From Eledone cirrhosa (lineage: Eukaryota): 64,000 bases of DNA. Position numbers and translations under genes: made by a program. Below are positions 46,005 through 46,290 of the stretch, piece after piece. The stretch covers positions 1-64,000 of the forward strand of contig CAXHJY010000309.1 of the NCBI GenBank assembly GCA_964016885.1, in the 5' to 3' direction. The notes under the pieces are model-generated. The model was not told the DNA's origin, made no database searches, and worked only from the letters and a program-made list of their open reading frames with translations. The stretch's first letter is position 1, and each line of letters opens with the position of its first letter.

Positions 46005-46290
46005 TATAATTGAATATAAAAGAGAGATAACAAATATATATACATATATGTGTTCAAATCGCAAGGGACCAGATTCGCTAGGGTGGAAAATATTCTAACT
46101 ATGAATAAATTAAGAAAAGAAATACAAACCGAAATTTCGACAACTGTCAGACACCCAGACAGCTTTTGGTGATGCTGTTTCGCAAATTTAGTGAAAGTGA
46201 ATTACCAATTCTTCTGCTCATCAGTGGGTGTGAAATTTGAACACATATATGTCTATATCTGTGTTTATCTCTCTTTTATATTCAATTATA
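46005..46290. mobile_element. About 290-bp element with about 55-bp inverted ends enclosing a hammerhead ribozyme
   Basis: tataattgaatataaaagagagataa..catatatgtgttcaaat versus atttgaacacatatatg..ttatctctcttttatattcaattata. Confidence 0.75.
46151..46231 (-). ncRNA. Canonical type I hammerhead ribozyme motif with GUC cleavage triplet
   Basis: Minus strand: acaccca-CTGATGA-gcaga(..)tttgc-GAAA-cagc(atcaccaaaa)gctg-TC-tgggtgt; perfect 7-bp stem I, 4-bp stem III. Confidence 0.88.

What the first reader, a model, noticed from the sequence alone, without database searches (positions are those of the whole stretch)
46005..46290. Textbook GUC hammerhead inside an inverted-repeat-bounded mini-element
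The minus-strand motif has a perfect 7-bp stem I (acaccca/tgggtgt), a 4-bp stem III closing a 10-nt loop, a GUC triplet and a long stem II loop containing its own hairpin (gaattggtaattc). Unlike the minimal motifs, it should be able to cleave as a monomer. It is enclosed by about 55-bp inverted ends, so a TIR finder would probably mis-call it as a MITE.
Basis: partly seen in the sequence, partly recalled or inferred. Interest (0 to 1): 0.75.

Follow-up and report, generated by a model that had tools for sequence, protein, structure and literature searches.

The report
Penelope-type repeat with self-contained hammerhead
This is one cut-short copy of a 520-base non-coding repeat, found over a thousand times in this animal genome, that carries a predicted self-cutting RNA fold able to work alone, and its mirror-image ends are likely the scar of a Penelope-type jumping gene's insertion, not the fixed ends of a small DNA transposon.

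Summary
The hammerhead and the inverted arms are real, but the finding is not a self-contained mini-element. It is a two-armed insertion (46007-46381, 9-bp target duplication) of a ~520-nt non-coding repeat with at least 1,093 hammerhead-bearing copies. The family shows the known Penelope-like (PLE) insertion layout: 5' truncation, partial tandems, (TA)n targets, and an inverted second copy of 35-670 nt in 53 of 84 loci. Stems I and III show compensatory changes between subfamilies, so a self-closing, non-palindromic stem III was probably kept by selection. The papers read describe minimal or palindromic stem III for animal PLEs. Against: stem II is weak, the predicted active fold is about 10% of the ensemble, RNAalifold and Rfam miss it, and no RNA data or autonomous partner were found. 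Best reading: a non-autonomous PLE parasite (retrozyme type), probably moved by a Hydra-clade PLE; this copy is a dead end. The scan noted what is probably this family, and similar two-armed retrozymes, elsewhere in this genome. Verdict: new variant of a known kind, modest interest.

The parts
46000..46008 (+). Left copy of a 9-bp target-site duplication, overlapping the element end by 2 nt
   Evidence: Read; also family D14 and the TSD scan
46007..46237 (-). Main arm: 5'-truncated copy of the ~520-nt unit (reference positions 262-527), 3' end pointing left
   Evidence: BLAST against the natural full copy in L019; best hit among fetched copies 87% identical
46151..46231 (-). Type I hammerhead motif; predicted cut after C46158; G12 at 46181
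   Evidence: family covariation
46160..46177 (-). Stem III (4 bp) with a 10-nt non-palindromic loop
   Evidence: four compensated stem sequences across subfamilies
46187..46212 (-). Long loop II; holds a 5-8-nt stretch complementary to loop III in most family copies
   Evidence: role not established (control)
46235..46237 (.). Head-to-head junction of the two arms with a 3-nt microhomology
   Evidence: Read against full copies
46235..46288 (+). Inverted second arm: 5'-truncated copy of the unit's 3' end (reference positions 473-527)
46289..46381 (+). One-sided ~92-nt tail, equal to the start of the next unit (reference positions ~7-98)
   Evidence: one-sidedness
46383..46391 (+). Right copy of the 9-bp target-site duplication, followed by (TA)n-like DNA

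Best explanation
This is a two-armed, 5'-truncated insertion of a ~520-nt non-coding repeat that carries a type I hammerhead fold and is likely moved by the enzymes of a Penelope-like retrotransposon (PLE). Shown: the unit, its lack of an ORF, the copy number, the insertion layout, the one-sided tail, (TA)n targets and compensatory changes in stems I and III. Inferred: a source locus with two hammerheads in tandem (such as L126, L260) is transcribed and cut twice, and the ~517-nt monomer is likely ligated into a circle. Inferred: a PLE RT-endonuclease nicks both strands of a TA-rich site, and each DNA end primes copying at one of two fixed RNA start sites ~92 nt apart. The two short cDNAs are then joined head to head through microhomology, which gives inverted arms, a tail on one side and a short duplication. 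Guessed: the helper is a Hydra-clade PLE. The window copy has one hammerhead, so it could at most cut a read-through transcript once and could not release a monomer.
For: Unit map of 60 loci against a natural copy: 5' truncation, partial tandems, tail. No ORF over 64 codons in the doubled unit. Inverted copy in 53 of 84 and 41 of 60 loci; TA run at the 3' end in 63 of 84. Tail on exactly one end in 41 of 43 two-armed loci with both ends callable, none with two (Fisher p 2.6e-10), and 24 of 28 in a second set (2 both, 2 none). Same layout as described for PLEs (PMC8557442; PMC3846280); two adjacent RT start sites make the tail and both strands are extended in vitro (PMC11167929). Stem I: A-U to U-A in 27 and A-U to G-C in 4 of 85. 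Stem III: 218 of 255 cells Watson-Crick against a shuffle mean of 169.5, maximum 188 of 2000, in 85 copies not chosen on stem III. Tandem copies cross the cut site twice; two cores lie 518 and 515 nt apart in L126 and L260. Six of 6 monomers fold as circles better than shuffles (z -3.5 to -7.5). Copies within one locus are closer (median 94.4%) than the median other copy (89.5%) over 66 pairs. In L092 the tail is joined directly to a 5'-truncated PLE ORF whose family has the Hydra motifs, a tail of similar length and a similar hairpin just past the tail end.
Against: No cleavage or RNA data. No autonomous element with this hammerhead or these ends in the fetched loci (tblastn with 4 PLE queries). 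The candidate helper's end region does not align with the unit better than shuffles (69 of 500 as good), and it has no canonical hammerhead core in 5 of 5 copies. The L092 junction is one case and both families target (TA)n. No long arrays: longest same-strand run 821 nt in 219 loci, unlike typical retrozymes. No pile-up of 5' ends at the cut site (3 of 223 within 337-347). Active fold over 2 kcal/mol above the ensemble in 115 of 154 copies; RNAalifold finds only 2 pairs. Covariation counts are of related copies and represent a handful of events. Within-locus identity beats the best other locus in only 15 of 66 pairs. The Anolis PLE hammerhead was not needed for insertion in vitro.
Confidence: 0.72

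Rival explanations
1. Same PLE parasite, but the template is a linear, uncut read-through transcript of a partial-tandem source locus; no circle forms, and the hammerhead only trims or is protein-gated.
For: No run beyond about 1.6 units in 219 loci. Uncut RNA was the main substrate for the Anolis PLE in vitro. Weak predicted active fold.
Against: Stems I and III were repaired repeatedly in spreading subfamilies, so the fold mattered. At least 7 tandem copies start upstream of the cut site in the first unit (L033, L059, L083, L126, L248, L256, L260), which needs two uncut sites or a circle.
Confidence: 0.17
2. The unit is only the pseudo-LTR of an autonomous PLE not yet found, and these copies are truncated stubs of it.
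For: The layout is identical to PLE stubs. Only a small share of over 1,000 copies was fetched, with flanks of 1.5-3 kb.
Against: In full copies the tail leads straight into the rest of the unit and the next hammerhead with no ORF. Copies found with the upstream 265 nt were preceded by the unit's own 3' end or by unrelated flanks, never by a shared ORF.
Confidence: 0.08
3. A MITE (DNA transposon) with ~55-bp terminal inverted repeats that carries a hammerhead as cargo.
For: Two 58-nt arms at 92% flank this copy; 31 of 53 inverted arms break within 449-478 of the unit, so arms of 50-80 nt are common.
Against: Arms span 35-670 nt and are absent in 31 of 84 loci; the inside varies in length; one end has an extra 92 nt; duplications are of variable length where visible.
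Confidence: 0.02

Closest known systems
Insertions of endonuclease-bearing Penelope-like elements (PMC8557442, passages and section 11; PMC3846280, passages; PMC11167929, parts 1-2 of 4)
   Same: 5' truncation, partial tandems, adjacent inverted 5'-truncated copy, tail at one end, (TA)n targets, type I hammerhead near the end
   Different: No ORF; tail ~92 nt instead of 30-40; no sequence match found to an autonomous PLE
Metazoan non-LTR retrozymes (PMC7229834, parts 2-4 of 6; bioRxiv 10.64898/2026.07.22.740005, parts 1-3 of 5)
   Same: Non-coding unit with one type I hammerhead per monomer, GC under 50% (34%), predicted self-paired circle, PLE proposed as helper
   Different: Unit ~517 nt (170-400 in the 2020 paper, 51-972 in the 2026 preprint); dispersed, at most ~1.6 units in the loci seen; stem III of 4-5 bp instead of 1-2; RNA not shown
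Hammerheads of fungal and protist PLEs with a large helix III (PMC4209133, parts 1-2 of 4)
   Same: Type I, large helix III, no recognisable loop I-loop II contact; the Serpula example cleaves as a monomer
   Different: Those are endonuclease-deficient, telomere-associated elements; this one is in an animal genome, where that paper reports minimal or small palindromic helix III
Non-autonomous Chlamys PLEs such as MRC1 (PMC8557442, passage)
   Same: Non-coding PLE dependants that form pseudo-LTRs and head-to-tail copies
   Different: Those generally match their helper at the 3' end and most Chlamys lack a canonical hammerhead; here no helper match was found

Membership tests
Type I hammerhead ribozyme | Core CUGANGA, GAAA, NUH in type I order | tested here: met
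Type I hammerhead ribozyme | Stems I and III supported by compensatory changes | tested here: met
   related copies, few independent events
Type I hammerhead ribozyme | Stable stem II and dominant active fold | tested here: inconclusive
   G10.1-C11.1 kept, no double change; stem II probability 0.28, active fold 0.11; the model has no tertiary or Mg2+ terms
Type I hammerhead ribozyme | Match to a curated Rfam hammerhead model | tested here: not met
   No hit at gathering score or at E up to 10. The window's minimal hammerheads also gave no hit at gathering score, so this is a model limit, not a family-defining failure
Type I hammerhead ribozyme | Self-cleavage after C17 | not testable with these tools
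   Needs an in vitro assay
MITE | Fixed terminal inverted repeats at both ends and uniform length | tested here: not met
   Arms 35-670 nt, absent in 31 of 84 loci, tail on one end
Autonomous EN+ PLE | ORF for RT plus GIY-YIG endonuclease | tested here: not met
PLE-type insertion | 5' truncation, partial tandem, adjacent inverted copy | tested here: met
PLE-type insertion | Tail at one end only | tested here: met
   41 of 43, 24 of 28; length ~92 nt
PLE-type insertion | Microsatellite (TA)n target | tested here: met
   63 of 84 at the 3' end
Non-autonomous PLE | End sequence shared with an autonomous PLE | tested here: inconclusive
   Only tail length, a short hairpin motif and one direct junction; alignment not significant; one autonomous family compared at the DNA level
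Metazoan non-LTR retrozyme | Non-coding low-GC unit with one type I hammerhead | tested here: met
Metazoan non-LTR retrozyme | Tandem of at least two units with complete hammerheads | tested here: inconclusive
   Two cores one unit apart in L126, L260 and L033 (second one damaged in L033 and L126), but no full dimer in 219 loci
Metazoan non-LTR retrozyme | Expressed as linear and circular monomer RNA | not testable with these tools
   Needs northern blot or RNA reads

The most novel reading that the evidence does not exclude
An animal PLE parasite whose hammerhead was selected as a self-contained monomer with a new architecture, in which loop II pairs with loop III either as an undescribed pseudoknot or as a switch that protects the circular template. 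It spreads when a hammerhead-less Hydra-clade PLE copies its ~517-nt circle from both ends of one DNA break using two fixed start sites.
Probability: 0.18. Interest if true: 0.65.

Novelty: new variant of a known kind. Interest (0 to 1): 0.36.

Why it matters
What PLE hammerheads do is open: the one tested in vitro was dispensable for insertion and needed protein to cut. Here several spreading subfamilies kept the fold through compensatory changes, which argues that the ribozyme matters for mobility, and the stable stem III makes it testable as a single short RNA. The near-strict one-tail-per-insertion rule gives a number for a feature described so far only in words, and links it to the two RT start sites seen in vitro. 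For annotation, such copies should be filed as retroelements, not MITEs. The single copy in this window is ordinary.

Tried and rejected
Rfam: no hit. RNA runs: no RNA holder listed. The three contig sets laid (one sample) show only that the repeat is abundant; their summed depth is no copy number, and exact counts replaced it (1,316 and 1,809 matches for two end words). One search used a bad reference and was redone. Two same-strand hammerheads 2.7 kb apart (L091) proved to be a local duplication, not an ORF-bearing element. A direct genome search for two cores one unit apart did not run, so tandem pairs were counted only in listed hits and fetched loci. I first took the abundant PLE for Nematis from memory; the motifs in PMC8557442 section 11 make it Hydra. 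It has no Pfam or PDB hit; its relatives carry PF26215 and one carries PF01541 (family names recalled). Loop II-loop III switch: the complementarity beats letter-shuffled loops (-4.1 against -2.0 kcal/mol) but shows no covariation (own -4.13, crossed -4.19), is broken in some subfamilies, and shuffling loop III barely helps the active fold (2.9 against 2.5 kcal/mol; native worse in 47 of 97). It is kept only as a lead. Cut site as a preferred 5' end: 3 of 223 breakpoints within 337-347; 5 copies start within -5 to +2 of the cut (read by eye); not clearly above background, and most loci were chosen for an intact hammerhead. Literature searches for an octopus or mollusc hammerhead family like this found none; Repbase and Dfam could not be searched.

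Full report
Observation. The minus strand of 46151-46231 holds a complete type I hammerhead: a perfect 7-bp stem I, the CUGAUGA and GAAA cores, a 5-bp stem II with one G-U, a 4-bp stem III closing a 10-nt loop, and GUC with C at 46158. The arms at 46002-46059 and 46235-46293 are 92% alike. The hammerhead is the minimum-energy fold of the 96-nt piece, but with z -0.39 against shuffles. Its share of the ensemble is 0.11, falling to 0.05 for the whole insertion. Rfam gives no hit.

Family. The window lies in a 3.0-Gb genome, AT-rich here; I infer an animal, possibly a cephalopod, but did not test this. Exact patterns give 183 copies with the full core and this stem III, 331 with the stem III part, 161 with a second stem III type and 1,093 with stem III left free; all reversed controls are 0. 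Two end words occur 1,316 and 1,809 times. Mapping loci on a natural full copy (L019) shows a unit of about 520 nt with no ORF over 64 codons, even across the tandem junction.

Anatomy of insertions. Copies are 5'-truncated and end at one of two fixed places: the unit end, or about 92 nt further on, in the start of the next unit (the tail). Of 84 loci (L001-L094 after dropping same-site duplicates), 53 have an inverted second copy of 35-670 nt at the 5' side, 21 are partial tandems, and 63 abut a TA run at the 3' end. Of those 53, both ends could be called in 43: 41 have the tail on exactly one end, 2 on neither, none on both (p 2.6e-10). In 60 further loci, 41 were two-armed, and of 28 callable 24 had one tail, 2 both and 2 none. 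Most loci were chosen for holding the hammerhead, which biases the long arm but not the tail pattern. In the window the main arm is 46007-46237 (minus), the second arm 46235-46288 (plus) with a 3-nt overlap, and the tail 46289-46381. A 9-bp direct repeat at 46000-46008 and 46383-46391 closes the whole.

This is the layout described for Penelope-like elements: partial tandems, an adjacent inverted 5'-truncated copy, a tail often at one end, and (TA)n targets (PMC8557442, passages; PMC3846280, passages). In vitro, an Anolis PLE cuts and extends both strands and starts copying at two adjacent internal sites that define the tail (PMC11167929, parts 1-2 of 4). A MITE reading fails on the variable arms and the one-sided tail.

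Is the ribozyme fold real? In 85 aligned copies (8 of 93 left out: one spurious, one local duplicate, six with large indels or bad anchoring), stem I has A-U to U-A in 27 and A-U to G-C in 4. About 30 of these were chosen on exact stems II and III, so their conservation there says nothing. In a second set of 85 copies not chosen on stem III, the three free pairs vary as A-U 72 / G-C 6, G-C 59 / A-U 13 and C-G 53 / U-A 14. That is 218 of 255 Watson-Crick cells against a shuffle maximum of 188 in 2,000, with loops of 2-11 nt. These are related copies, so this is a handful of events, but they were fixed in subfamilies that then spread, which points to selection on a self-closing stem III. Against: RNAalifold recovers only 2 pairs, stem II is short and never changes on both sides, and the active fold is over 2 kcal/mol above the ensemble in 115 of 154 copies. 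Only 16 of 29 copies found without regard to the hammerhead keep an intact core, so an intact core in this copy is not special. A stretch of loop II is complementary to loop III in most copies, but it shows no covariation, and shuffling loop III hardly changes the result; it remains a lead. The passages read in PMC3088659 describe pseudoknots only between stems I and II.

Template and helper. Tandem copies cross the cut site twice, and L126 and L260 hold two cores 518 and 515 nt apart, the arrangement that could release a monomer. Six of 6 monomers fold as circles better than shuffles. No run exceeds 821 nt in 219 loci (three loci were dropped as suspected duplicates that may not be), and 5' ends do not pile up at the cut. 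So circle versus uncut linear template is open. No fetched locus has an ORF in place of the unit's inside. In L092 the tail is joined directly to a 5'-truncated RT-endonuclease ORF of a very abundant family (112 scored copies at 95-96%; 709 aa). Its RWR, DKT, CxCx5C, CxxC and CxH motifs match the Hydra clade (PMC8557442 section 11). That family has a tail of similar length and a similar hairpin just past the tail end, but its end does not align significantly with the unit. It is a candidate helper only; other PLE families lie near other copies.

Comparison. It works like a non-LTR retrozyme, a non-autonomous PLE dependant (PMC7229834, parts 2-4 of 6; bioRxiv 10.64898/2026.07.22.740005, parts 1-3 of 5; its supplements not seen). 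Full membership is not shown, because no full dimer and no RNA were found. It differs in the 4-5-bp non-palindromic stem III and long loop II. PMC4209133 (parts 1-2 of 4) reports minimal or small palindromic helix III in animal PLEs and a large one in fungi and protists. Coral and mussel retrozyme hammerheads already cleave as single motifs, so monomer activity alone would not be new. Six searches found no description of this family; Repbase and Dfam were not available.

Earlier notes of this scan, read after my reading was fixed: no sequence match was returned, but e1-8664355 describes what is probably this family, and several notes describe two-armed retrozymes in this genome. Its claim that broken ends mark the cut site was only weakly seen here.

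Verdict. This is a dead copy of a PLE-type non-coding retroelement whose hammerhead is an unusual, testable variant. Interest 0.36.

Noticed in passing
window 443-508, 5886-5951, 6092-6156, 12945-13010, 16847-16902, 20498-20569, 62884-62948, 63292-63356, 63641-63707: Nine further hammerheads of other families with short, mostly near-palindromic stem III. Several show the same layout of inverted arm, one-sided 80-90-nt tail and (TA)n flanks, and the tails start with a similar small hairpin.
   Followed up: partly
L246:1890-2500: A family with no BLAST match to the unit but the same layout (hairpin after the tail end, about 175 nt, hammerhead, about 175 nt, end) and a 7-bp stem III.
   Followed up: partly
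L100:1498-3627 and related loci: Very abundant Hydra-clade PLE (709 aa) with no canonical hammerhead core in the ~1.1-kb 3' region of 5 of 5 copies, although PMC8557442 says canonical hammerheads are universal in that clade.
   Followed up: partly
L074:2260-2550: Inverted end next to another PLE-like RT fragment, with a hammerhead-like motif that appears to have the U3-A8 core variant mentioned in PMC4209133 (read by eye).
   Followed up: no
unit positions 449-478 (window about 46060-46085): 31 of 53 inverted arms break in this 30-nt zone, just upstream of a TA-rich hairpin; cause unknown, and BLAST end effects were not excluded.
   Followed up: no
L190:1657-2500: A second case of the tail followed, after five TA units, by a 5'-truncated ORF related to the Hydra-clade protein (38% identity).
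   Followed up: partly
window 46858-47119: Three to four copies of a 78-80-bp GC-richer tandem repeat 500 nt right of the insertion.
   Followed up: no
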